DNA from: Candidatus Moraniibacteriota bacterium
GTDB taxonomy: Bacteria > Patescibacteriota > Minisyncoccia > Moranbacterales > JAPLXC01
Assembly (NCBI GenBank): GCA_026396275.1
Contig: JAPLXC010000002.1
Coordinates: forward strand, 10,618-74,617
Length of the DNA: 64,000 nt
Reading direction: 5' to 3'
Part shown: positions 10,326 to 61,675 of the stretch, one piece after another
How positions within the stretch are numbered: position 1 is the stretch's first letter
Layout of the letters: every line of letters begins with the position of its first letter
Made by a program: the position numbers and the translations under genes
Notes under the pieces: model-generated
Seen by the model: the letters and a program-made list of their open reading frames with translations, nothing else
Databases searched by the model: none
Told to the model about the DNA's origin: nothing

Positions 10326-10385
10326 ACTAGTTTGTCTACTAATTATCCCGCTAAAGCGGGACCCCGCTGAGGCGGTGGCGAATCA

Positions 10386-10468
10386 AGTACTAATATACGA
10401 ATTTCAATTATGCCTAAGAAGGGTTTTGATAATTAGTATATTCGTATATGATTCGTAGTTCGTAGAGA
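10386..10468. repeat. TACGAAT/ATTCGTA heptamer cluster (inverted arms around a spacer) directly 3' of ruvB
   Basis: agtactaatatacgaattt ... ttagtatattcgtatatgattcgtagttcgtagag. One of seven similar clusters at gene boundaries. Confidence 0.55.
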
Positions 10469-11479
10469 TTACATCAGTTTTTGCTGATGATTACTGGGCA
10501 ACTTATGCCCCAAATGCCGAAAAGCGTTTTCGGTGACAACGCGCCCGCGGGGAGTCCTGGCTAAAAAGCCAATCTGAATGAGATACGGCTCAAATACATC
10601 TTCAATTGTTTGAATTTCCTCGGATGTCGCCGCCGCGATGGTCTGCACTCCCACCGGGCCTCCGTTGAATTTTAGAATTATTGTTTCCAGAATATGCCGG
10701 TCAATCAGTTCCAAGCCCACATCATCAATGTCCAACATTTTTAACGCCTGGCAGGTAACTTCGGCTGTTATCACATCGTGGTTGCTAATTTGAGCAAAGT
10801 CGCGCACGCGCTTTAGAATCCTGTTAGCCACCCGGGGGGTCTGCCGGCTGCGGACCGCCATTTCCCTGGCTGCGTCATTTTCCACATTCACGTCCAATAT
10901 CTTGCTGGAGCGATTAATTATTTTTTGAATTTCCTCCTCACCATAAAAGTCTAGACGGTGGATGATGCCGAACCGGTTGCGCAATGGATTGGAAATAGCG
11001 CCTAATCGGGTAGTGGCGCCAATCAAAGTAAAATGGGGAAGTTCCAGCTGAAGTGTGCGCGCTGATGGGCCCTTGCCGATGATTATATCAAGCTTGTGAT
11101 CCTCCATTGCTGGGTAAAGCACTTCTTCAATTAATTTATTAAGCCGGTGTATTTCATCAATAAAAAAAATATCTCCATCCTGAAGATTGGTAAGAATTGA
11201 TCCCAGATCTCCTACCCGCTCAATCGCCGGACCGGAAGTGATCTTGATGCTCGCTCCCATTTCCTTGGCAATAATGTAGGCCAGGGTTGTTTTCCCTAGT
11301 CCTGCCGGGCCGTAAAGGAGAACGTGTTCGATTGGCTCGCCGCGTTTTTTGGCTGCTTCAATGACAATTCGCAAATTTTTCTTTACTTTTTCCTGCCCGA
11401 CGTATTCAAAAAAGCTATTGGGCCGAAGCGTAGTGTCCAGTTTAACATCCTCAATTTTCTCACTGGAATTGGTGATCAT
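10469..11479 (-). CDS. ruvB: Holliday junction branch-migration helicase RuvB
   Basis: 336 aa. Walker [20 protein letters not shown]; full AAA+ and winged-helix layout. Confidence 0.92.
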
Positions 11480-12473: not shown

Positions 12474-12532
12474 TGTCATGCTGAACTCGATTCAGCATCT
12501 AATTAGATTCCGGCTCGAAGGCCGGAATGACA
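12474..12532. repeat. GTCAT-type modular double-hairpin palindromic element, full copy
   Basis: tgtcat-GCTGAActcgaTTCAGC-atctaattagat-TCCGGCtcgaagGCCGGA-atgaca. Ends 6 nt from the GIY-YIG stop codon. Confidence 0.7.
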
Positions 12533-12537
12533 AATAC

Positions 12538-12828
12538 TTATCCAAGCAATGTTTCACTTAAATCTTTCCATTTGGGATTACTTTTATTGATTAAATCAAT
12601 TTTCCATTCACGTTTCCAATTTTTAAGCTGTTTTTCTCTGGTTAAGGCGCTTCTGACATCTTCAGTCTGCTCAAAATATACTAATTTTTTCAAATTGTAT
12701 CTTTTAGTAAAACCATCAACCAGTTTATTTTTATGCTCATAAATTCTTTTAGATAAATTACCAGTAACTCCGGTATAAATTACTGTATTAATTTTATTGG
12801 TCAAAATGTAAACACAATATTGTTTCAT
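12538..12828 (-). CDS. Small stand-alone GIY-YIG nuclease (YhbQ/YazA-like URI domain)
   Basis: ATG start re-set; the track begins at an upstream TTG. MKQYCVYILTNKINTVIYTGVTGNLSKRIYEHKN is a GIY-YIG signature. About 96 aa. Confidence 0.7.
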   Translation of the reverse strand: MKQYCVYILTNKINTVIYTGVTGNLSKRIYEHKNKLVDGFTKRYNLKKLVYFEQTEDVRSALTREKQLKNWKREWKIDLINKSNPKWKDLSETLLG

Positions 12829-12831
12829 AAA

Positions 12832-12863
12832 AATTAGATCCCGGGTCAAGCCCGGGATGACAT
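12832..12863. repeat. GTCAT-type element, single-hairpin half copy, immediately 5' of the GIY-YIG start
   Basis: aattagat-CCCGGGtcaagCCCGGG-atgacat. Same scaffold as the 48139 copy. Confidence 0.55.
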
Positions 12864-17838: not shown

Positions 17839-18318
17839 ATGAAATCTTATATCACCAACAGCTCCGCGGAAACCAAAAAACTGGGCGAATTACTCGCCCG
17901 CGAGCTTTACGGCGGGGAAATAATTTGTCTTTCCGGTGAACTGGGTTCCGGCAAGACCACATTTGCGCAAGGGCTTCTCAAGGGACTAAAAATAAAAGGA
18001 CCGCACACGAGCCCTACGTTTGTGATAATAAAACAATATCACGTAGCACGTAACACTAAACACATAACAAATAAGAAATCAGAGTTGTTACGTGATATGT
18101 GCTATGTGTTATGTGACATCTACCATATCGACGCCTATCGTGTTACTGCTAAAGATATCTTAAATCTTGGTTGGGGGGAAATTATAAAAGATAAAAGTAA
18201 TATAATAATCGTAGAATGGGCCGACCGGATAAGAAAAATAATTCCCAAAGGGGCCACTCGGATTAAGTTTGAGTGGGTAAGTGAAAATAAAAGAAAAATT
18301 ACCCTCATGTCATCCTGA
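17839..18318 (+). CDS. tsaE: tRNA t6A37 threonylcarbamoyladenosine biosynthesis protein TsaE, carrying an in-frame palindromic insertion
   Basis: GELGSGKTTFAQGL, SPTFVIIKQY and YHIDAYR motifs are present. Between SPTF..Y and YHxDxYR there are about 27 aa (HVARNTKHITNKKSELLRDMCYVLCDI) where E. coli YjeE has about 7. Confidence 0.75.
   Translation: MKSYITNSSAETKKLGELLARELYGGEIICLSGELGSGKTTFAQGLLKGLKIKGPHTSPTFVIIKQYHVARNTKHITNKKSELLRDMCYVLCDIYHIDAYRVTAKDILNLGWGEIIKDKSNIIIVEWADRIRKIIPKGATRIKFEWVSENKRKITLMSS
18038..18118. repeat. CAYRTAACA-family imperfect palindrome inserted in frame within tsaE
   Basis: atcacgtagcacgtaacactaaacacataacaaataag aaatcagag ttgttacgtgatatgtgctatgtgttatgtgacat. The arms pair cacgtaac/gttacgtg and cacataaca/tgttatgtg. 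Confidence 0.6.
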
Positions 18319-18489
18319 ATTCATTTCAGGATCTAATACCAACACATTAAATTACCAGTTGACTTTTTTAACCATGGCTGGAAATTTAAACCGGAATTTT
18401 TGGAAAATAAAAAAGACAGATGAATTACAAACTGCCTAAAATTTGGATTGGGGATGCTCGCGAAGATTCTCGCAAGCATTCCCGAAAAA

Positions 18490-23024: not shown

Positions 23025-23033
23025 CTGGTTACT

Positions 23034-23138
23034 AATTACGAATTATTTACTAATATACAAATATACGAATATTTTATCCTCTCTTTCTTTTTAGAAAGAA
23101 AATTAAGAGATTAAATTCGTATATTCGTATAAAATTCG
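23034..23138. repeat. TACGAAT/ATTCGTA heptamer cluster with a central palindrome, 3' of fpg
   Basis: ttacgaatt..actaatatacaaatatacgaatatt - ctctttctttttagaaagaaaa - attcgtatattcgtataaaattcg. Inverted arms around the ttctttttagaaagaa palindrome. Confidence 0.55.
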
Positions 23139-23258
23139 CCCGCCTGCTTCAAAATTAATTATATGGCGGGATTAATGAAATTATTTGCTCCGAAAAAATA
23201 ACTAACGATGGCAACTCAACAATGAAGCATTTCGGGCAGGTAATTCGTAAAGAAAATC

Positions 23259-33271: not shown

Positions 33272-33337
33272 TGTCATTCCCGCGAAAGCGGGAATCTAGA
33301 GAATTTTCTAGATTCCGGCTCGGAGGCCGGAATGACA
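33272..33337. repeat. GTCAT-type modular double-hairpin element, full copy between the two GT2 genes
   Basis: tgtcat-TCCCGCgaaaGCGGGA-atctagagaattttctagat-TCCGGCtcggagGCCGGA-atgaca. Starts 4 nt after the upstream stop codon. Confidence 0.7.
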
Positions 33338-33343
33338 TATTAT

Positions 33344-34075
33344 ATGGTTTTATCTTTCATTATCGTCAACTATCAAAGTGAAAAATATTTAGAAAATTGT
33401 ATTTCTTCAATTAAAGAAAAAGTTTTAAGTGTGGATTATGAAATAATTGTTGTGAATAATGACAATGGCAACTTAGAAGCTAAGCTTGCAAATGAAATAA
33501 AAGTTATAAAAAGCGAGGAAAATATTGGTTTTGGAGCAGCAAATAATATTGGTGCGAGGGAAGCAAAAGGTGAAATATTATGTTTTTTAAATCCAGATAC
33601 GAAAGTTATTTCAGAAGATATTAAGAGTCTGCTGGACGAATTTGATAAAAATGACAAATTGGCAATCATTGGGCCGAAATTATTAAGCGATAAAAATGAA
33701 GTTCAATGGTGGTGCGCCGGGAAAGAAGTAACCGTTTGGAGCATTATATTAAATAACTTGGGCTATAGGCGCGACAAAAAAATTTGGGAAAGTTCTAAAA
33801 AAATCAAATGTGCCTGGGTGAGCGGCGCGGCGATGTTTATCCGGCGGGAAGTTTTTGAAAAACTCGGCGGATTCGATGAAAAATTTTTTATGTATTTTGA
33901 AGATATTGATCTTTGCAAAAAGGTGCGAATAGCTGGATATAAAGTTTTATACTATCCAAATTTTGCCATAAAGCATTTTGGCGGCAGGAGTTTTTCACTT
34001 GACAGAAAGGCACAGAAATGCTATTATTATAAATCTCAAAAATATTTTTTGAGAAAATGGCTCATTAGTCAATAA
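33344..34075 (+). CDS. Family 2 glycosyltransferase
   Basis: Start re-set to MVLSFIIVNYQSEKYL. The track start at 33332 uses the atgaca end of the repeat element. GT2 motifs IIVVNNDNGN. Confidence 0.7.
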   Translation: MVLSFIIVNYQSEKYLENCISSIKEKVLSVDYEIIVVNNDNGNLEAKLANEIKVIKSEENIGFGAANNIGAREAKGEILCFLNPDTKVISEDIKSLLDEFDKNDKLAIIGPKLLSDKNEVQWWCAGKEVTVWSIILNNLGYRRDKKIWESSKKIKCAWVSGAAMFIRREVFEKLGGFDEKFFMYFEDIDLCKKVRIAGYKVLYYPNFAIKHFGGRSFSLDRKAQKCYYYKSQKYFLRKWLISQ

Positions 34076-34143: not shown

Positions 34144-35496
34144 ATGGTTTATAAACTGCTTTTATTGTTCTGCCTCTATCTTCCCTTTCAAATCGCCTTA
34201 AATCCCAGCGAAGGAATTGACCTTGCTTCAGTAAGGGTAATAATCCCAATCCTGGCTTTATTATGGATTATTTCAGGTCTCAAAAACCGGCGGATTTTTA
34301 TTCCAGCGAAAATACAGACGGTTTTAATCATATTTTTTTTGTTCATAGCTGGCCTTTCACTATTTTGGGCAGATAATCAGGATTGGGGATTCCGGAAACT
34401 TTTGTTCTTGCTTTCAATCTTTCCGGTTTATTTTGTAGTAACCAGTATTATTCAATGTCATTCCCGCGAAAGCGGGAATCCAGAAATAAATGGCGTAGAT
34501 TCCGGCTCAGGGGCCGGAATGACATATCTGAATGTCAAAATTATCAAATTTCTCGTCTGGGGCGCGGGAGTTACATCTGTAATTGGCATAATTCAATTTC
34601 TTCTGCAATTTATGATTGGGCTGGATAATACTGCTGCAATTTGGAGAAATTACGTAACACCTCTGTTTTTAGGAAAATCATTTACTCATGCTGTTTTAGA
34701 ATATCCCAGCTGGCTGGTTAATGTTTCCGGGAAAGATTTTTTAAGGGCCTTTTCGACATTTCCCGATCCGCATATGCTTTCTTTTTATTTAGGGCTTTCG
34801 CTACCTTTGGCAATAGGATTATACTATGCTTTTAAAAAAAATATTTATTTATTTTTTTCTTTAATAATTTTAATCGCGAATCTCCTTACCTTTTCCCGTG
34901 GAGGGTATATCGGCTTGGCTGCCGGCCTGATTTTTATAGTTTTATATTTTGCTGTCAATAAAAAAATATCGGCTAAAAAACTTTTAGCTTCTCTTGTGCT
35001 GACACTGATTGTTTTGGCGTCTCTGGCGCTCACGCCAATCGGGAAGCGGGCCATTACCAGCTTCAGCACTGTTGAGGGCTCAAACAAGGTAAGATTTGAA
35101 AACTGGAATCAAGCGGTTAAAGTAATCAAAAATAATCCGCTGGGAGTGGGAATCGGCAATTATTCCTATGAAATTGAGCCCAGCGCTCCCTACCGGAAGC
35201 CGATTTACGCTCATAATTTATATCTTGACATCGCGGCGGAAACAGGAATTATCAATGCCATAATCTTTATATTGCTGGTCGTTTTTTCAATTAAAGATTT
35301 TGTGAAAAAATCAAAAGATAATATTTTATATCTAGGGAGTGCGGCGGGACTTGTGATTTTTTCAATCCATTCAGTTTTTGACACCGCGCTTTATTCAGTG
35401 CAAGTTCTGCCCCTGCTTTTAGTAATAATAGCTTTATCTGCTTCGAATAATTCCGGTAACACTATACTGCGGCCGCGGCATAGTGTTACCGGATGA
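34144..35496 (+). CDS. O-antigen ligase/polymerase-like (Wzy_C family) membrane protein with an in-frame repeat-element insertion
   Basis: 450 aa, multi-TM. Residues CHSRESGNPEINGVDSGSGAGMTY are encoded entirely by a GTCAT-type element. Confidence 0.55.
   Translation: MVYKLLLLFCLYLPFQIALNPSEGIDLASVRVIIPILALLWIISGLKNRRIFIPAKIQTVLIIFFLFIAGLSLFWADNQDWGFRKLLFLLSIFPVYFVVTSIIQCHSRESGNPEINGVDSGSGAGMTYLNVKIIKFLVWGAGVTSVIGIIQFLLQFMIGLDNTAAIWRNYVTPLFLGKSFTHAVLEYPSWLVNVSGKDFLRAFSTFPDPHMLSFYLGLSLPLAIGLYYAFKKNIYLFFSLIILIANLLTFSRGGYIGLAAGLIFIVLYFAVNKKISAKKLLASLVLTLIVLASLALTPIGKRAITSFSTVEGSNKVRFENWNQAVKVIKNNPLGVGIGNYSYEIEPSAPYRKPIYAHNLYLDIAAETGIINAIIFILLVVFSIKDFVKKSKDNILYLGSAAGLVIFSIHSVFDTALYSVQVLPLLLVIIALSASNNSGNTILRPRHSVTG
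34456..34525. repeat. GTCAT-type double-hairpin element inserted in frame within a CDS
   Basis: tgtcat-TCCCGCgaaaGCGGGA-atccagaaataaatggcgtagat-TCCGGCtcagggGCCGGA-atgaca. The element begins exactly at a codon boundary of ORF 34144..35496. Confidence 0.65.
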
Positions 35497-48138: not shown

Positions 48139-48203
48139 TGTCATCCCGGACTTGATCCGGGATCTAATCTAATTAGATGCTGAATCAAGTTCAGCGTGAC
48201 ATT
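48139..48203. repeat. GTCAT-type modular double-hairpin element upstream of pnp
   Basis: tgtcat-CCCGGActtgaTCCGGG-atctaatctaattagat-GCTGAAtcaagTTCAGC-gtgacat. Confidence 0.7.
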
Positions 48204-49837: not shown

Positions 49838-50119
49838 TTATCCACCTTCTTCAGTTCTTTCTGCTGCGAACAATTTCATATGCTGTTTTTCTACTTCTGA
49901 AAGCGATTCGGTTTCTTTTATAAAACCAACCAGTGCCTCCCTTAATTTTTCGGCATAATCAGCTTCACCCTCATCGCCAATTGCCACTCCTATCTTTTCT
50001 TGGGCGTCTAGTAATTCTTCCAGAGTTTTCAATCCCCTAATGTATCTTATCATATCCTCCTTTAAAACCTCAATTTCTTTGTTTTCTTTTTGGCCTTCAA
50101 AAAATTTTGATTCATTCAT
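49838..50119 (-). CDS. Hypothetical acidic coiled-coil protein
   Basis: 93 aa, no motif recognised. Confidence 0.3.
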   Translation of the reverse strand: MNESKFFEGQKENKEIEVLKEDMIRYIRGLKTLEELLDAQEKIGVAIGDEGEADYAEKLREALVGFIKETESLSEVEKQHMKLFAAERTEEGG

Positions 50120-50136
50120 AGTTTTTTAGTTGATAA

Positions 50137-50177
50137 TTATTCGTATATTCGTACCTAATTCGTAATTCGTAGAGAAA
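50137..50177. repeat. ATTCGTA heptamer x4 direct cluster immediately 3' of gyrA
   Basis: attcgtat attcgtac cta attcgta attcgtag ag, ending at the gyrA stop. Resembles the post-ruvB copy (attcgtagttcgtagag). Confidence 0.55.
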
Positions 50178-52619
50178 TTACAGCACTGCCGCCGCCGATA
50201 TTTTGTCTCCCGCCTCTGGGCGCATAATCCGCACTCCCTGAGTGGCTCTTCCCAGCACCGATATGCTTTTGAGAGGAATTCTGATTATCTGGCCTTTTTC
50301 CGAAGTAATAATCATATCTCCTTCAATGTCATCTACGTTAGCTATGTTAGCCCCGACTAGTTTTCCGGTCTTGGTAGTAACTTTAGCGGTTTTGATTCCC
50401 GAGCCGCCCCGGCGCTGGACCTTATAAGATCTGAGATCTGTTCTTTTGCCAAATCCGTTCTCACTGATTATCAGAAGTTGATTCCCTTTTTGCCCTTTAA
50501 GTACCGCGTTCATGCCGACGACTAAATCATCCTTTCTTAATTTAATTCCCCGTACTCCGGAAGCATTTCGCCCCATTGGCCGCACATCCGATTCTTTAAA
50601 GTGAATAGCTTGGCCGTGAGAGGTGGTAATGACAATTTCATCCGTTCCGGTCGTTGCCTTTACCCACCCCAGCGTGTCTTGTTTTTCGAGTTTGATAGCA
50701 ATAAGCCCACTGCGGCGTACATTGTCAAAATCGGAGAGGTGGATCTTTTTAACAATGCCGTGCTCGGTGGTCATAAAGAAATATTTGTAATTGTCGCTTT
50801 TGCTATAGGGGATCATTTCGGTTATTTTTTCATCCGAAGCAAGCTGCAAAAAGTTCACGATCGCCTGGCCCTTGGCTGTTCGTGTTGATTCCGGAATCTC
50901 GTATGCTTTGGTTTGATACACTTTTCCGGTATTGGTAAAAAACATTAAGTTATCGTGAGTCATCACACTGGTAACCTGTTCGATGACATCTCCTTCTTTG
51001 GTGGTGGCTCCAATCACTCCTTTTCCGCCGCGTTTTTGCACCCGGTACGCGCCCGGATTCATTCGCTTGATATAGCCATCCTGGCTCAAAGTAATAATCG
51101 CTTCATCATTGGCTATCAGATCTTCCTGCTTGAACTCGCCGATTCCCGAGCGAACCACCTTTGTTTTTCGCTCGTCGCCGTATTTTTCCTGAATTTCCCC
51201 TAGCTCCTTTTTTATGGTCTCCGAGATTTTTTTCGGGCTTTTAAGAAGTGCCTCCAATTGGACAATGAGCTGTTTCTTTTCTTTGAGCTCATCGTCTATT
51301 TTGCGACGCTCCAGCCCAGCCAGTGTTTGAAGTTTCATTTCCAAAATGGCCGTTGCTTGCTGATCAGAAAAACGGAATCGCTTAATCAAATTCTGGTGGG
51401 CTATTTCCCGGGTAGCTGATTTTTTGATGGTGCTAATAATAGCATCAATATGATCCAGCGCCTTTTTTAGTCCTTCTAAAATGTGAGCGCGTTCCTTGGC
51501 TCGAGTCAGGTCAAATTTGACTCGACGGGTTATTACAATCCGGCGGTGATCAATGAAAAAGGAGAGAATCGATTTCAGGTTAATCACTCTTGGTTCAATT
51601 CCCTCAACCAGCGCCAGCATATTGACGTTAAAATTTTTCTGAAGATCAGTGTTTGAATAAAGCGAATTCAGCACTTTTTGAGGATAAGCATCTTTTTTCA
51701 GATCAACCACGATTCTCACTCCTTCTTTGCCGGACTCGTCGCGAATGTCTTTAATTCCCTGAATTTTTCCGTCTTTTGTTAACTGGGCAATTTTTTCTAT
51801 TAGGACTGATTTATTAGTAGCATAAGTTATTTCACTGACAATGATCTGGAAACTCCCTACTTTTGTTTCGGTAATTTCAGCCTTGGCCCGGGTAATGATT
51901 TTTCCTCTTCCAGTAGAATAGGCCTCTTTAATATCTTTAGCGTTGTAAATTATTCCCCCGGTGGGGAAATCAGGTCCCTGAATGAATTTCATCAGTTCCT
52001 CGGTGCCGGCTTCCGGATTATCAATAAGGTAAATCAAAGCGCTTACGACTTCAGAAAGATTGTGGGGAGGAATGCTGGTTGCCATTCCCACCGCGATTCC
52101 CATCGTTCCATTAAGAATGAGCTGGGGAATTTTAGCCGGAAGAACTACCGGCTCCTGATGAACGCCGTCAAAATTGGGGACAAAATCAACTGTCTCTCTT
52201 TCAATGTCAGAAAGTATTTCCTCGGCAATGGGCGCAAGCTTTGCTTCAGTGTAGCGGTAGGCGGCGGCGCTGTCTCCGTCCAGAGACCCAAAGTTTCCCT
52301 GTCCCCAGACTAGCGGGTAGCGCATATTGAAATCCTGGGACAGGCGGACCATTGAATCGTAAACGGCCACGTCTCCGTGAGGGTGGTATTTCCCAATAAC
52401 TTCTCCCACAACGGTAGCGGATTTTCGGAATTTAGCTCCCGGCCGGAGGCCGCTGTTCCACATGGAATAAAGAATGCGGCGATGAACCGGTTTCATCCCA
52501 TCGCGGACATCCGGCAGGGCGCGCGAAACAATTACGCTCATGGCGTAATCCAAATATGATTGCTGAATTTCTTCAGTTATCTCTCTGGGATGGATGGTTT
52601 CCTTTTTCTTCTGTTCCAT
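50178..52619 (-). CDS. gyrA: DNA gyrase subunit A
   Basis: 813 aa. Active-site region [11 protein letters not shown] (Tyr), a GyrA-box-like C-terminal beta-pinwheel with QRRGGSGI. Confidence 0.93.
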
Positions 52620-52958: not shown

Positions 52959-52971
52959 TAGAATAAAATCT

Positions 52972-53076
52972 TTACGAATTACGAATCTAGTACTAATATA
53001 CGAATTTTTTTAACCAAAAATTAAGTGAAGCAATTAAACTTATCTTTGGATATTGGTATATTCGTATTAAATTAGT
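52972..53076. repeat. TACGAAT/ATTCGTA heptamer cluster between a hypothetical gene and the MBL hydrolase gene
   Basis: tttacgaattacgaatctagtactaatatacgaattt ... ggtatattcgtatt. ctagtactaatatacgaattt is identical to the post-ruvB copy. Confidence 0.55.
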
Positions 53077-53088
53077 AATTAGTAAAGA

Positions 53089-53748
53089 TTACTCCACACT
53101 CATTATCACCACTTCCATACTTTTCTCTTCCAAATCCCTTTTCTTAAAAGACAGTTTATTTGATTTTTGGCTGGGGCAATTTCCCATTTCAGCGCAGAAT
53201 TTCTTTTCGTCAGCGATATCAATGGCCGAACCCTTGATTTTGTAGTGCATCGGAATAACAATTGCTGGCTCAATTTTTCTTACCAACTCTGCCGCTTTTT
53301 TGCCATCAAGAGTGATTTTGCCACCCACTGGAATAAACAAGACATCTATTCCGTCAATTTCTTCAAGCTGTTCCGAAGTAAGATCGGTTCCCAAGTCCCC
53401 CAAGTGGCAGATTTTCATTTCTTCCGATTCAATAACAAAAACAGTACTGTGTCCTCTTTCCTCTCCTCCCTTTTCATCATGAAATGTGTCTATCCCAACA
53501 GCGTTTATGCCTCTGGCTGAATACTCCCCCGGAAGATCAATAACAAGCGGGCCATTCTTAAGTGCAGAAGTATTGTTATGATCGTAATGATCATGGGATA
53601 CAAAAACAATATCCGCGTGCCCCTGAGGTGACCGCAGTCCAATGGAGCGATCAAAAGGGTCGGTAAAAATGACCACATCTTCAGTGGCTCTTCCTGCTGG
53701 TTTGGTTGTTATTTTAAAACAAGAATGGCCGTAATATTGGATATTCAC
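53089..53748 (-). CDS. MBL-fold metal-dependent hydrolase (UPF0173-like)
   Basis: Motif VFVSHDHYDHNN. Start re-set to the GTG giving (M)NIQYYGHSCFKI, because the track N-terminal extension to 53799 reads through a repeat element. Confidence 0.65.
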   Translation of the reverse strand: MNIQYYGHSCFKITTKPAGRATEDVVIFTDPFDRSIGLRSPQGHADIVFVSHDHYDHNNTSALKNGPLVIDLPGEYSARGINAVGIDTFHDEKGGEERGHSTVFVIESEEMKICHLGDLGTDLTSEQLEEIDGIDVLFIPVGGKITLDGKKAAELVRKIEPAIVIPMHYKIKGSAIDIADEKKFCAEMGNCPSQKSNKLSFKKRDLEEKSMEVVIMSVE

Positions 53749-53754
53749 GATTTC

Positions 53755-53812
53755 TTTACGAATTACCTGCCTGCCGGCAGGCAGGCGAATAACGTACAAA
53801 TATACGAATTAT
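53755..53812. repeat. TACGAAT heptamer pair around the GC palindrome tgcctgccggcaggca, upstream of the MBL hydrolase gene
   Basis: tttacgaattacc-tgcctgccggcaggca-ggcgaataacgtacaaatatacgaattatt. Confidence 0.5.
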
Positions 53813-60982: not shown

Positions 60983-61101
60983 GATCATGGAACATATAGC
61001 ATGAAACATGTAACATTAACAGGGAAAGATTTTACAAAACAGGAATTGGTAGATTAGTAAAGAAATTCATATTAAGAGCGATGAAAAGTTTAAGTAAATC
61101 G

Positions 61102-61164
61102 GGCAATTAGCTCAGTTGGTTACCCGCCCGAACGTACCGTCGTTCGGTACGGGCGGGGAGTGCT
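61102..61164 (+). tRNA. tRNA 5' portion (acceptor + D-arm) interrupted by a 35-36-nt perfect hairpin; the matching 3' portion appears to lie at about 61612-61665
   Basis: GGGCAAT-TA-GCTC-AGTTGGTTA, then CCCGCCCGAACGTACCGTCGTTCGGTACGGGCGGGG, then GAGTGC. The 3' segment ...GAGTGCCCCGATGTAACATCGGGGAGGTCGCTGGTTCGATTCCAGCATTGCCCA has an acceptor 3' strand ATTGCCC perfectly complementary to GGGCAAT. Coordinates +/-1. Confidence 0.4.
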
Positions 61165-61170
61165 ATATTT

Positions 61171-61431
61171 ATGTATACCGTATACGTGTTACAAGACAAA
61201 GAAGGAAAATTTTACAAAGGTGTTACAAATAATATTAAGCGCCGACTCTATGAACATAAACAGGGCAAAACAAAAACTACAAGAAAGATGGACGAGTTAA
61301 AAATTGTTTACACAGAAAAATACAAAAACTTTAAAGAAGTGAGAAGAAGAGAAGTTTATTTTAAAACTGCAGCAGGAAGAAGATTTTTAAAGAAAATATT
61401 AAATAAAAGGGCGACTAGCTCAGCTGGTTAG
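61171..61431 (+). CDS. Small GIY-YIG nuclease (second copy), embedded in the tRNA locus with its stop codon inside tRNA-Val
   Basis: 86 aa. MYTVYVLQDKEGKFYKGVTNNIKRRLYEHKQG is a GIY-YIG signature. Track coordinates used; my hand count puts the ATG at 61172. Confidence 0.6.
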   Translation: MYTVYVLQDKEGKFYKGVTNNIKRRLYEHKQGKTKTTRKMDELKIVYTEKYKNFKEVRRREVYFKTAAGRRFLKKILNKRATSSAG

Positions 61432-61483
61432 AGCGTCACATTGACATTGTGAAGGTCACAGGTTCAAGTCCTGTGTCGCCCAC
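61410..61483 (+). tRNA. tRNA-Val (anticodon GAC)
   Basis: GGGCGAC-TA-GCTC-AGCTGGTTA-GAGC-G-TCACA-TTGACAT-TGTGA-AGGTC-ACAGG-TTCAAGT-CCTGT-GTCGCCC-A, 74 nt, full cloverleaf. Coordinates +/-1. Confidence 0.8.
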
Positions 61484-61587
61484 TTAGTTCAGTTGGTTAC
61501 CCGCCCGAACGTACCGTCGTTCGGTACGGGCGGGGAGCGCTTCGTTGACATCGAAGAGGTCTGCAGTTCGAGTCTGCACAAGCCCAC
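61484..61587 (+). tRNA. tRNA-Val(GAC)-like pseudo/variant copy lacking a matching 5' acceptor strand and carrying the same hairpin in its D-loop
   Basis: TA-GTTC-AGTTGGTTA-[36-nt hairpin 61501-61536]-GAGC-G-CTTCG-TTGACAT-CGAAG-AGGTC-TGCAG-TTCGAGT-CTGCA-CAAGCCC-A. No GGGCTTG 5' strand. Flanked by the direct repeat GCCCACTT (61479-61486 and 61583-61590). Confidence 0.4.
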
Positions 61588-61675
61588 TTGTTTATATATA
61601 GGCAATTTTAGAGTGCCCCGATGTAACATCGGGGAGGTCGCTGGTTCGATTCCAGCATTGCCCACTCAAAATAAA

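What the first reader, a model, noticed from the sequence alone, without database searches (positions are those of the whole stretch)
34456..34525. In-frame insertion of a GTCAT hairpin element inside a Wzy/O-antigen-ligase-like CDS
The element begins on a codon boundary of ORF 34144..35496 and is translated as CHSRESGNPEINGVDSGSGAGMTY without breaking the frame. The same element family is intergenic elsewhere. This resembles Rickettsia palindromic elements, which are selfish palindromes tolerated as in-frame peptide insertions in loops of proteins. Here it would sit in a periplasmic or cytoplasmic loop of a polytopic membrane protein.
Basis: partly seen in the sequence, partly recalled or inferred. 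Interest (0 to 1): 0.75.

Follow-up and report, generated by a model that had tools for sequence, protein, structure and literature searches.

The report
Hairpin repeat pair inside a membrane-protein gene
A 69-base pair of small DNA hairpin repeats, of a widespread kind already known from Neisseria and Rickettsia, sits in frame inside an O-antigen-ligase-like gene of a Moranbacteria (CPR) genome and adds 23 residues to a predicted cytoplasmic loop; this is a clean new example of a known phenomenon.

Summary
Window 34456-34524 (69 nt, 23 codons) is two inverted hairpin modules, TGTC + 8-bp stem + loop + stem + C, inside the intact Wzy_C ORF 34144-35496.

Orthologs in conserved synteny have a 16-residue linker at this point. 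The window protein has 37 residues there. AlphaFold gives the extra residues pLDDT below 50, between two helices, and hydropathy places them in the cytoplasmic TM4-TM5 loop.

The element is not a new kind:
- The left module matches the Neisseria NTS consensus at 27 of 28 positions. NTS belongs to the Ssn-related motifs (SRM) of Chenal 2025.
- It also fits the CGTC-tagged REPs of Di Nocera 2013. That paper equates CGTC-1 with dRS3 and Rickettsia RPE-6, and it already reports in-frame intragenic dimers.
- A 96-aa GIY-YIG (Ssn-like) gene at 12538-12828 is flanked by such modules.

What is new here:
- The host phylum is Patescibacteria.
- At least 25 of 120 homologs carry differing inserts in this same loop, most of them hairpin-type.
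- Of exact-pattern dimers found elsewhere, 4 of 10 in Patescibacteria lie inside real genes, against 2 of 116 in other phyla.

How the dimers are mobilised remains inferred. Novelty: new member of a known kind. Interest is moderate.

The parts
34456..34524 (+). Hairpin-repeat dimer (SRM / CGTC-REP heterodimer, heads outward) inserted in frame in the wzy-like gene. 69 nt, encoding CHSRESGNPEINGVDSGSGAGMT.
   Evidence: Absent from orthologs.
34456..34483 (+). Left module: TGTC head, 8-bp stem ATTCCCGC, GAAA loop, stem GCGGGAAT, CCAG tail.
   Evidence: 27 of 28 match to the NTS consensus CGTCATTCCCGCGMAVGCGGGAATCYRG (PMC11893778). Matches the published SRM search pattern.
34495..34524 (-). Right module, read on the - strand: TGTC head, 8-bp stem ATTCCGGC, CCCTGA loop, stem GCCGGAAT, CTAC tail. 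The stem differs from the left module by one compensated pair.
   Evidence: Fails the published SRM pattern but has the same architecture.
34144..35496 (+). Host gene: O-antigen-ligase / Wzy_C family polytopic membrane protein, 450 aa. The insert is residues 105-127, in the predicted cytoplasmic TM4-TM5 loop.
   Evidence: PF04932 E = 1e-22. 100% identical to an NCBI Moranbacteria MAG protein. AlphaFold model. Topology. Best PDB fold match is WaaL 7TPG.
33272..33337 (+). Sister dimer with the same two modules and a different spacer, 66 nt. It lies between the two GT2 genes. Its ATGACA end supplies the ATG at 33332, but the ATG at 33344 aligns with ortholog starts.
12538..12828 (-). ssn-like gene: 96-aa single-domain GIY-YIG nuclease.
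   Evidence: PF01541 E = 9e-16. More than 3500 homologs of 94-102 aa. About 50% identical homologs lie next to the same dimers in Chloroflexota, Planctomycetota and Patescibacteria loci.
12835..12862 (-). Module upstream of ssn (stem ATCCCGGG), in the same orientation as the gene.
   Evidence: All 31 aligned columns of the module and its tail are identical to the syntenic L006 locus, while ssn itself varies at many third-codon positions.
12474..12532 (+). Dimer downstream of ssn (stems ATGCTGAA and ATTCCGGC). With 12835-12862 it gives the arrangement module, ssn, module, inverted module.
   Evidence: The same arrangement occurs in L006, L007 and L009-L013.
48139..48201 (+). Dimer made of the two outer end modules of the ssn unit (ATCCCGGR and ATGCTGAA types) with no gene between them. 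It looks like a deletion derivative of that unit.
18308..18335 (+). Single module (stem ATCCTGAA) that overlaps the last codons and the stop codon of tsaE (ORF 17839-18318).

Best explanation
The insert is a non-autonomous dimer of small DNA hairpin repeats. Each module has a TGTC head, an 8-bp stem starting with AT, a 4-6 nt loop, and a C immediately after the stem. The family has been described three times under different names: CGTC-tagged REPs, Neisseria dRS3/NTS with the wider Ssn-related motifs (SRM), and the short Rickettsia RPE-4/RPE-6.

The same genome encodes the family's partner protein. This is a 96-residue single-domain GIY-YIG nuclease of the Ssn type, whose gene is itself bracketed by such modules. 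In Neisseria and Wolbachia, Ssn binds the hairpin only as single-stranded DNA and cuts a few bases upstream of the head.

I infer that dimers arise from, or are copied through, single-strand intermediates that depend on this protein plus host repair. On that view they land essentially anywhere, and selection removes every landing that breaks a gene. This copy survived for three reasons:
- TGTCA...TGACA is exactly 23 codons.
- The frame in use has no stop codon.
- It fell in a short, variable cytoplasmic loop between TM4 and TM5, far from the periplasmic catalytic loop. There it is translated as a disordered Gly/Ser-rich extension.

Shown here: the element's identity, the insertion state, the loop location, the intact gene and the association with ssn.
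Inferred: that Ssn mobilises the dimers, and that the longer protein is made and functional.
For: Element identity:
- 27 of 28 match to the NTS consensus, plus a hit to the published SRM pattern (PMC11893778).
- All 10 modules keep the GTC head and the C after the palindrome. The paper found these positions critical for cleavage and binding respectively.
- The modules fit the CGTC-REP description of head, 8-bp AT-initiated stem, 4-nt loop and CCA tail (PMC3733652).

Partner gene:
- GIY-YIG ORF flanked by modules on both sides.
- Modules flank ssn in every Moranbacteria locus fetched, and the three-module arrangement is the same in the syntenic L006 locus.
- The modules are almost unchanged between the window and L006, while ssn differs at many third-codon positions and similarity ends at TGTCA/TGACA.
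- Dimer 48139-48201 is made of the two outer end modules of that unit.

Insertion state:
- The baseline linker is 16 residues. Empty sites occur in syntenic orthologs.
- The window copy folds like the intergenic copy (z = -5.2 and -6.0). Ortholog inserts are decayed (z = -2.9 and -1.0).

Tolerance:
- pLDDT is below 50 across the insert, in a cytoplasmic loop.
- Wzy_C domain and WaaL-like fold are intact.

Generality:
- The exact dimer occurs in at least 120 stretches of DNA across many phyla.
- Six lie inside verified genes, in both orientations and several frames: Mur ligase, YfhO-like, GT4, TrmD and two N6_N4 methylases.
Against: - No evidence from this genome shows that the dimers move now. 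No strain with an empty site was found; the nearest homolog is about 70-74% identical.
- GIY-YIG enzymes hydrolyse DNA and are not known to join strands, so Ssn alone cannot be a transposase.
- The ssn locus is syntenic between two genomes, which suggests a resident, domesticated gene rather than a hopping one.
- The left module type of the insert (ATTCCCGC) is not among the three modules flanking the ssn copy in this window.
- I could not compare the ORF with Neisseria SsnA or with CDD cd10448. Its assignment to the Ssn family rests on size, domain and context.
- Expression and function of the longer protein are untested.
Confidence: 0.8

Rival explanations
1. The loop is a true integration hot spot or landing pad. 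An early hairpin insertion, or a local DNA feature, attracts further hairpin elements, which then replace one another by Ssn-stimulated recombination. On this view the pattern reflects targeting rather than mere tolerance.
For: At least 25 of 120 homologs have inserts in this one 16-residue linker. Those inserts include several different module types and a second, unrelated palindrome family. In the clade nearest the window, close neighbours carry different inserts. In L004 an extra hairpin abuts the element.
Against: Insert positions vary: after linker residue 5, 7, 8 or 9. Reading phases also differ, TGT-CAT in some and GTC-ATT in others. That fits a permissive-site filter. The empty sites in L001 and L002 show no shared motif or hairpin. 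Other sites in the same protein family also carry inserts (P0023, P0024, P0077). 108 distinct dimers from other genomes show no target-site duplication and only a Y-rich -1/-2 position.
Confidence: 0.25
2. The dimer has a host function at this place. As proposed for NTS clusters around surface-protein genes in Neisseria, two dimers (33272 and 34456) bracket a segment of the polysaccharide locus and modulate recombination of incoming single-stranded DNA, or they act on the mRNA.
For: Two sister dimers lie 1.1 kb apart and bracket the second GT2 gene and the 5' part of wzy in a surface-polysaccharide cluster. Chenal et al. show that the NTS-gene-NTS arrangement lowers transformation in Neisseria meningitidis. 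Both hairpins of the coding copy are still perfect.
Against: Orthologous clusters lack both dimers. Ortholog inserts are allowed to decay. No terminator-like site lies at the element and no Rfam family matches it. Intragenic copies elsewhere sit in unrelated housekeeping genes, in both orientations.
Confidence: 0.1
3. The gene is inactivated, or the insertion is an assembly artefact of a metagenome-assembled genome.
For: The protein is known from one contig only. Repeats can confuse assemblers. A second Wzy_C paralog lies immediately downstream and could cover a loss.
Against: The frame is open for 450 codons, with family-invariant residues on both sides of the insert. The paralog pair is conserved in the orthologous loci, so it is not a backup specific to this genome. 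Independent assemblies show analogous in-frame inserts at the same loop. A 69-nt insert flanked by unique coding sequence is not a typical misassembly.
Confidence: 0.04

Closest known systems
NTS / Ssn-related motifs (SRM) with the Ssn GIY-YIG single-strand nuclease (Chenal et al., Nat Commun 2025, PMC11893778)
   Same: The head, palindrome and tail sequence is nearly identical: 27 of 28 for the left module. The GTC head and the C after the palindrome are conserved. A roughly 95-aa single-domain GIY-YIG gene is bracketed by the motifs. Distribution spans many phyla.
   Different: The paper reports NTS as rarely intragenic (2% in N. meningitidis 8013). Its text does not mention in-frame coding copies, Patescibacteria, the earlier CGTC-REP literature or RPEs. 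Eight of the ten modules here fall outside its degenerate search pattern. Ssn activity was not tested for this lineage.
CGTC-tagged REPs, families CGTC-1 to CGTC-4 (Di Nocera, De Gregorio, Rocco, BMC Genomics 2013, PMC3733652)
   Same: CGTC/TGTC head, 8-9 bp stem starting with AT, 4-5 nt loop, CCA-like tail. Units pair in opposite orientation, often as heterodimers with different stems. Intragenic dimers encode 20-30 residues in known proteins.
   Different: The family was reported in five phyla, not in CPR, and was said to lack a dedicated enzyme. Several loops here are 6 nt, and most tails are CTA rather than CCA.
Rickettsia palindromic elements (Ogata et al. 2000 and 2002, as cited in PMC3733652)
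   Same: Palindromic repeats tolerated as in-frame peptide insertions in functional proteins of a small genome. According to Di Nocera et al., RPE-6 and RPE-4 are CGTC-1 and CGTC-4 repeats.
   Different: The classic RPE-1 is longer (about 100-150 bp, from my own recollection) and unrelated in sequence. No Rickettsia DNA was compared here; the only link seen is a 12-residue peptide match to a short Rickettsia ORF.
REP / REPIN elements with RAYT tyrosine transposases (PMC2817692, PMC3116915)
   Same: Short hairpins with an unpaired head tag, inverted dimers as the likely mobile unit, and a small gene flanked by its own repeats.
   Different: The head here is GTC, not GTAG. The flanked gene is a hydrolytic GIY-YIG nuclease, not an HUH tyrosine transposase, so a peel-and-paste mechanism cannot simply be assumed.

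Membership tests
NTS / SRM (Ssn-related motif) | Match to the NTS consensus CGTCATTCCCGCGMAVGCGGGAATCYRG or to the SRM search pattern HGTCWYN(0-2)YYVSBRHN(0-5)WNVSBRGN(0-2)RNCYNB | tested here: met
   Left module 34456-34483 matches at 27 of 28 positions and hits the pattern. The pattern gives 2 hits in the window against 0.04 expected. The right module and the other module types do not hit the pattern.
NTS / SRM (Ssn-related motif) | Conserved GTC immediately upstream of the palindrome and C immediately after it. The paper reports these as critical for cleavage and binding. | tested here: met
   All 10 modules read TGTC-AT...AT-C. One has a single stem mismatch.
NTS / SRM (Ssn-related motif) | A single-domain GIY-YIG (ssn) gene of about 94 aa in the genome, flanked by the motifs on both sides | tested here: met
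   96-aa PF01541 ORF 12538-12828 with modules at 12835-12862 and 12474-12532. The same holds in six other Moranbacteria loci.
NTS / SRM (Ssn-related motif) | The protein belongs to CDD family cd10448 and is homologous to N. meningitidis SsnA | not testable with these tools
   Neither CDD nor the SsnA sequence was available. Indirect support only: about 50% identical homologs next to the same dimers in three phyla.
NTS / SRM (Ssn-related motif) | Ssn binds the motif as single-stranded DNA and cuts upstream of it, on one strand only | not testable with these tools
   This is biochemistry. Both strands of the dimer fold into the two hairpins as DNA.
CGTC-tagged REP (CGTC-1-like) | CGTC or TGTC head, 8-bp stem starting with AT, 4-nt loop, CCA tail | tested here: met
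   Left module: TGTC, ATTCCCGC, GAAA, GCGGGAAT, CCA. The right module has a 6-nt loop and a CTA tail, so it fits only loosely.
CGTC-tagged REP (CGTC-1-like) | Units paired in opposite orientation, often with different stems (heterodimers) | tested here: met
   Four dimers in the window, all heterodimers. The exact pair recurs in at least 120 stretches of DNA in other genomes.
Rickettsia palindromic elements | Palindromic repeat inserted in frame in a protein that stays intact, and absent from orthologs | tested here: met
Rickettsia palindromic elements | Sequence relationship to a named RPE family (RPE-6 / RPE-4) | not tested
   This rests on the equivalence stated in PMC3733652. The only direct hint is the peptide CHSRESGNPE in a 40-aa Rickettsia ORF.
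REP / REPIN with RAYT | GTAG head tag and a flanked tyrosine (HUH) transposase gene | tested here: not met
   The head is TGTC in all modules. The flanked gene is GIY-YIG.
Classical MITE | Terminal inverted repeats with a target-site duplication | tested here: not met
   Among 108 distinct dimers, abutting direct repeats do not exceed shuffled pairs. None is seen at the window copies.
Wzy_C / O-antigen ligase family (host protein) | Pfam PF04932 domain above the gathering score, and a polytopic WaaL-like fold | tested here: met
   80.9 bits against a cut-off of 31.7. 12 predicted TM segments. Best PDB match is WaaL 7TPG at E = 1e-5, though TM-score is only 0.36-0.40.

The most novel reading that the evidence does not exclude
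In Patescibacteria, which have tiny genomes with little intergenic room, Ssn-associated hairpin dimers are routinely fixed inside genes. They may be a main source of the lineage-specific loop insertions seen in CPR proteins. Certain loops, such as the TM4-TM5 loop of this Wzy-like family, may act as landing pads where elements are repeatedly gained and exchanged. If so, comparing filled and empty sites across CPR genomes would give the first natural record of how SRM/CGTC elements move, and would tie the Rickettsia RPE puzzle to the Ssn nuclease.
Probability: 0.3. Interest if true: 0.6.

Novelty: new member of a known kind. Interest (0 to 1): 0.42.

Why it matters
The window links three literatures that do not cite each other in the texts I read: Rickettsia coding palindromes, CGTC-tagged REPs, and the Ssn/NTS system. 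It contains an intact partner gene, its flanking motifs, an ends-only derivative, an intergenic dimer and a young in-frame copy.

It extends the family to the Candidate Phyla Radiation. It also hints that compact genomes push these elements into protein loops: 4 of 10 Patescibacteria dimers lie in genes against 2 of 116 elsewhere (Fisher p = 3e-4, small and truncated sample).

For annotation, peptides such as CHSRESGNP, VIPAKAGIQ, SFPRKRESR, WIPAFAGMT and LDSRFRGND inside otherwise conserved proteins should be read as repeat-derived loop insertions. They are not domain features or gene-model errors.

Tried and rejected
- Peptide search for the insert. A 45-residue concatenation found only three short spurious ORFs and gave no census of host proteins.
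- Search of metagenome contigs for the 22-nt left flank, to find a strain with an empty site. The only hit was an unrelated, eukaryote-like contig.
- The published SRM pattern as a census tool. It misses 8 of the 10 modules here and all decayed ortholog copies, so I used a head + stem + C scan instead.
- Sequence search of solved structures with the ssn product. Nothing better than UvrC at E = 0.18.
- Supplementary tables of the Ssn paper. None are held.
- Rfam on the whole window. Only one tRNA was found and nothing at the element.
- A terminator role. No terminator-like site lies at the element.
- Long stop-free frames around dimers in GC-rich genomes. Most were rejected as non-coding: by eye for L036, L043, L051, L131 and L133, and by absence of any Pfam hit for L018, L059, L100, L120 and L127.
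- The Coxiella QMITE paper. The held text gives no sequences that would let me relate QMITEs to this family.
Full report
**1. What is in the sequence**

Window 34456-34524 reads TGTCATTCCCGCGAAAGCGGGAATCCAG, then AAATAAATGGC, then GTAGATTCCGGCTCAGGGGCCGGAATGACA. These are two hairpin modules in inverted orientation with their TGTC heads pointing outward. The first base is codon position 1 of ORF 34144-35496, which stays open for 450 codons.

The unit TGTCA...TGACA is 69 nt, which is 23 codons and encodes CHSRESGNPEINGVDSGSGAGMT. The next codon, TAT, also follows the intergenic sister copy, so the exact edge cannot be fixed.

A scan for head + stem + loop + stem finds ten perfect or near-perfect modules in the window. 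All read TGTC-AT(6 bp)-loop-(6 bp)AT-C. The relaxed scan gives 13 sites against 1.8 in shuffles. The stems differ between modules (ATTCCCGC, ATTCCGGC, ATGCTGAA, ATCCCGGG, ATCCTGAA) but always pair.

As single-stranded DNA the coding copy folds into its two hairpins on either strand (z = -5.2 and -4.1). The intergenic copy at 33272-33337 does the same (z = -6.0).

**2. It is an insertion in an intact gene**

- The ORF is a Wzy_C / O-antigen-ligase family protein (PF04932, E = 1e-22).
- It is 100% identical to a protein of a Candidatus Moranbacteria MAG.
- Orthologous loci keep the order flippase, GT2, GT2, Wzy, Wzy.
- In 120 homologs the linker between the FPxYF motif and the next helix is 16 residues in the great majority. 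In the window protein it is 37.
- At the DNA level, empty sites (L001, L002) run straight through, while the window has the 69-nt unit after ...ATTCAA.
- Residues invariant in the family are present on both sides of the insert.

**3. Where it sits in the protein**

An AlphaFold model built on the 38-sequence alignment has pTM 0.75. Residues 107-124 have pLDDT below 50 and are coil between helices 93-108 and 128-158.

Hydropathy and the positive-inside rule give a self-consistent topology of 12 TM segments with the N-terminus inside. The Lys/Arg-rich loops 44-56, 272-280 and 382-393 are cytoplasmic. The large conserved loop 300-362 is periplasmic. The insert lies in the cytoplasmic TM4-TM5 loop. 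The best solved-structure match is the WaaL ligase 7TPG, at E = 1e-5 but with a low TM-score.

**4. What the element is**

The left module matches the Neisseria Transformation Sequence consensus CGTCATTCCCGCGMAVGCGGGAATCYRG at 27 of 28 positions. It also matches the degenerate pattern for Ssn-related motifs: 2 hits in the window against 0.04 expected (PMC11893778).

That paper shows that SsnA, a 94-aa single-domain GIY-YIG protein, does the following:
- It binds the hairpin only as single-stranded DNA.
- It cuts a few bases upstream of the hairpin, on one strand.
- It is usually encoded between two such motifs.
- The C after the palindrome matters most for binding, and the three bases before it matter most for cutting.

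All ten modules here keep both positions.

The window also encodes a 96-aa single-domain GIY-YIG protein at 12538-12828. One module lies upstream of it and a dimer lies downstream.

Modules flank ssn in every Moranbacteria ssn locus I fetched. Against the syntenic locus L006:
- The three-module arrangement is the same.
- The modules are almost unchanged (all 31 aligned columns of the upstream module identical).
- The gene itself differs at many third-codon positions.
- Similarity stops exactly at TGTCA and TGACA.

The dimer at 48139-48201 consists of the two outer end modules of this unit with nothing between them. A deletion derivative would look like this.

**5. Earlier literature on the same thing**

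Di Nocera et al. 2013 (PMC3733652) defined CGTC-tagged REPs. These have a CGTC or TGTC head, an 8-9 bp stem beginning with AT, a 4-5 nt loop and a CCA tail, and are mostly arranged as dimers, often heterodimers.

They state that CGTC-1 in Neisseria is dRS3. They also state that CGTC-1 and CGTC-4 in Rickettsia conorii are RPE-6 and RPE-4. They list intragenic copies in known proteins, more than half of them dimers or grouped repeats encoding 20-30 residues. They concluded that the family lacked a dedicated enzyme.

The Ssn paper's text does not mention that work or RPEs. I did not compare Rickettsia DNA directly.

**6. Breadth**

The hits came from:
- Gamma-, Beta-, Alpha- and Deltaproteobacteria
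- Chloroflexota
- Planctomycetota
- Acidobacteria
- Actinobacteria
- Bacteroidota
- Gemmatimonadota
- Patescibacteria

Among 108 distinct copies there is no target-site duplication beyond chance. Only the two positions before GTC show a bias, towards pyrimidines. Three of the 8-kb stretches happen to contain ssn homologs about 50% identical to the window protein.

**7. Intragenic copies elsewhere**

Of the 126 dimers, 24 lie in long stop-free frames. Most of those are spurious frames in GC-rich DNA. Six are inside real genes:

| Locus | Host gene | Organism |
|---|---|---|
| L073 | Mur ligase; insert inside the C-terminal domain | Portnoybacteria |
| L089 | YfhO-like membrane protein | Patescibacteria |
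| L122 | GT4 glycosyltransferase | Patescibacteria |
| L115 | TrmD | Portnoybacteria |
| L114, L130 | Two orthologous N6_N4 methylases | Gammaproteobacteria |

Both orientations and several reading frames occur. That argues against any dedicated coding role. Four of 10 Patescibacteria dimers are intragenic, against 2 of 116 elsewhere (Fisher p = 3e-4). The sample is small and truncated.

**8. The loop as a recurrent site**

At least 25 of 120 Wzy homologs carry extra residues in this same linker:
- +8 residues, which is the size of a single module (for example PAVIPSERGESRDS).
- +21 to +39 residues, which is the size of dimers (for example VIPSEAEES...LDPSTP...RDDN, CHSERSEAESRN..., CHPEFISGS...).
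- Inserts of a second, unrelated palindrome family (SPYQGEDKGEV, PLLKAEG).

Inserts begin after linker residue 5, 7, 8 or 9. They are read in different phases: TGT-CAT in the window, GTC-ATT in L004 and L005. On a neighbour-joining tree built without the loop, filled and empty states and different insert types are interleaved.

So there were several independent gains, possibly with replacement. The ortholog copies are decayed hairpins (z = -2.9 and -1.0), whereas the window copy is perfect and nearly identical to the intergenic copy 1.1 kb upstream. This suggests the window insertion is young.

**9. How it most likely works**

Shown:
- The family identity of the element.
- The partner gene and its bracketing modules.
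- The ends-only derivative at 48139-48201.
- The insertion state, the loop location and the intact host gene.

Inferred:
- Dimers are copied through single-strand intermediates that involve Ssn and host repair.
- Survival inside genes is a filter: length a multiple of three, no stop codon in the used frame, and a permissive loop.

Ssn is a hydrolase, so it cannot by itself join DNA. The ssn locus is also syntenic between genomes. Ssn as the mobilising enzyme therefore remains a hypothesis; I put it at roughly 40%.

Rivals considered:
- A true landing pad with element turnover (0.25).
- A host function in recombination control of the polysaccharide locus, by analogy with Neisseria (0.1).
- A pseudogene or assembly artefact (0.04).

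**10. Verdict**

The kind of element, its partner nuclease and the in-frame phenomenon are all published.

What is new is the host phylum, the recurrent use of one cytoplasmic loop in a Wzy-like family, and a first hint that CPR genomes hold an unusually high share of these dimers inside genes. Novelty is a new member of a known kind, and interest is moderate.

Noticed in passing
window 61099-61600: A 66-nt direct repeat (61099-61164 and 61476-61541, 92% identical) looks like the 5' part of a tRNA carrying a 35-nt bulged, near-palindromic hairpin (CCCGCCCGAACGTACCGTCGTTCGGTACGGGCGGG) in its D-loop region. Between the two copies lie a second, different small GIY-YIG ORF (about 61172-61410; PF01541 E = 9e-13) and the only tRNA that was called (Val-GAC, 61409-61483). 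The second repeat copy runs into a tRNA-like body with a Val-GAC-like anticodon loop. ARAGORN and Rfam do not call it, even with the palindrome removed.
   Followed up: partly
window 35455-35495: A 40-nt palindrome without a GTC head (CCGGTAACACTATACTGCGGCCGCGGCATAGTGTTACCGG) lies at the 3' end of the wzy-like ORF. It encodes the protein's unusual C-terminal tail (NNSGNTILRPRHSVTG) just before the next Wzy_C gene.
   Followed up: no
window 33332-33346: The ATG that opens ORF 33332-34075 (GT2) lies inside the intergenic hairpin dimer (ccggaATGACA). Orthologs start at the position of the second ATG (33344, MVLSFIIVNY against MDLSFIIVNY in L004). The annotated start may therefore be repeat-derived.
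   Followed up: partly
window 18308-18335: A single hairpin module supplies the last codons (..L M S S) and the TGA stop of the tsaE ORF 17839-18318.
   Followed up: no
P0002, P0005, P0012, P0015, P0033 (Wzy homologs); L073 Mur ligase: A second, unrelated family of coding palindromes occupies the same Wzy loop in other Moranbacteria, with peptides such as SPYQGEDKGEV, PLLKAEG and PLPNQGGEV. A similar peptide occurs in the Portnoybacteria Mur ligase (PNPLLNRGEGENPPQPSFVKGGSVPLFEKGRLGG).
   Followed up: no
L015, L023-L025, L032, L033, L038, L040 and about 20 more loci (Thiohalobacteraceae MAG JBAYTM01): In this one genome the same dimer is embedded in a longer repeat with constant flanks (aatcccagtttc ... 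ggattgttcaga), present on dozens of short contigs. This suggests a recent burst of a composite element.
   Followed up: no
window 10379-10472, 23029-23147, 50103-50180, 52964-53092, 53777-53811: Another AT-rich repeat family, built on motifs such as AATTCGTATATTCGTATA and CGAATnnnGTACTAATATACGAATTT. It includes a 78-nt inverted pair (72% complementary) separated by 2.8 kb at 50103 and 52964.
   Followed up: no
L114 and L130: Two Gammaproteobacteria from different families (a Chromatiales MAG and a Porticoccaceae MAG) carry orthologous N6_N4 DNA methylase genes with the dimer at the same position and in the same frame (RHSRESGNP...SGSSAGMT). This suggests the gene was transferred or inherited with its insert.
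   Followed up: partly
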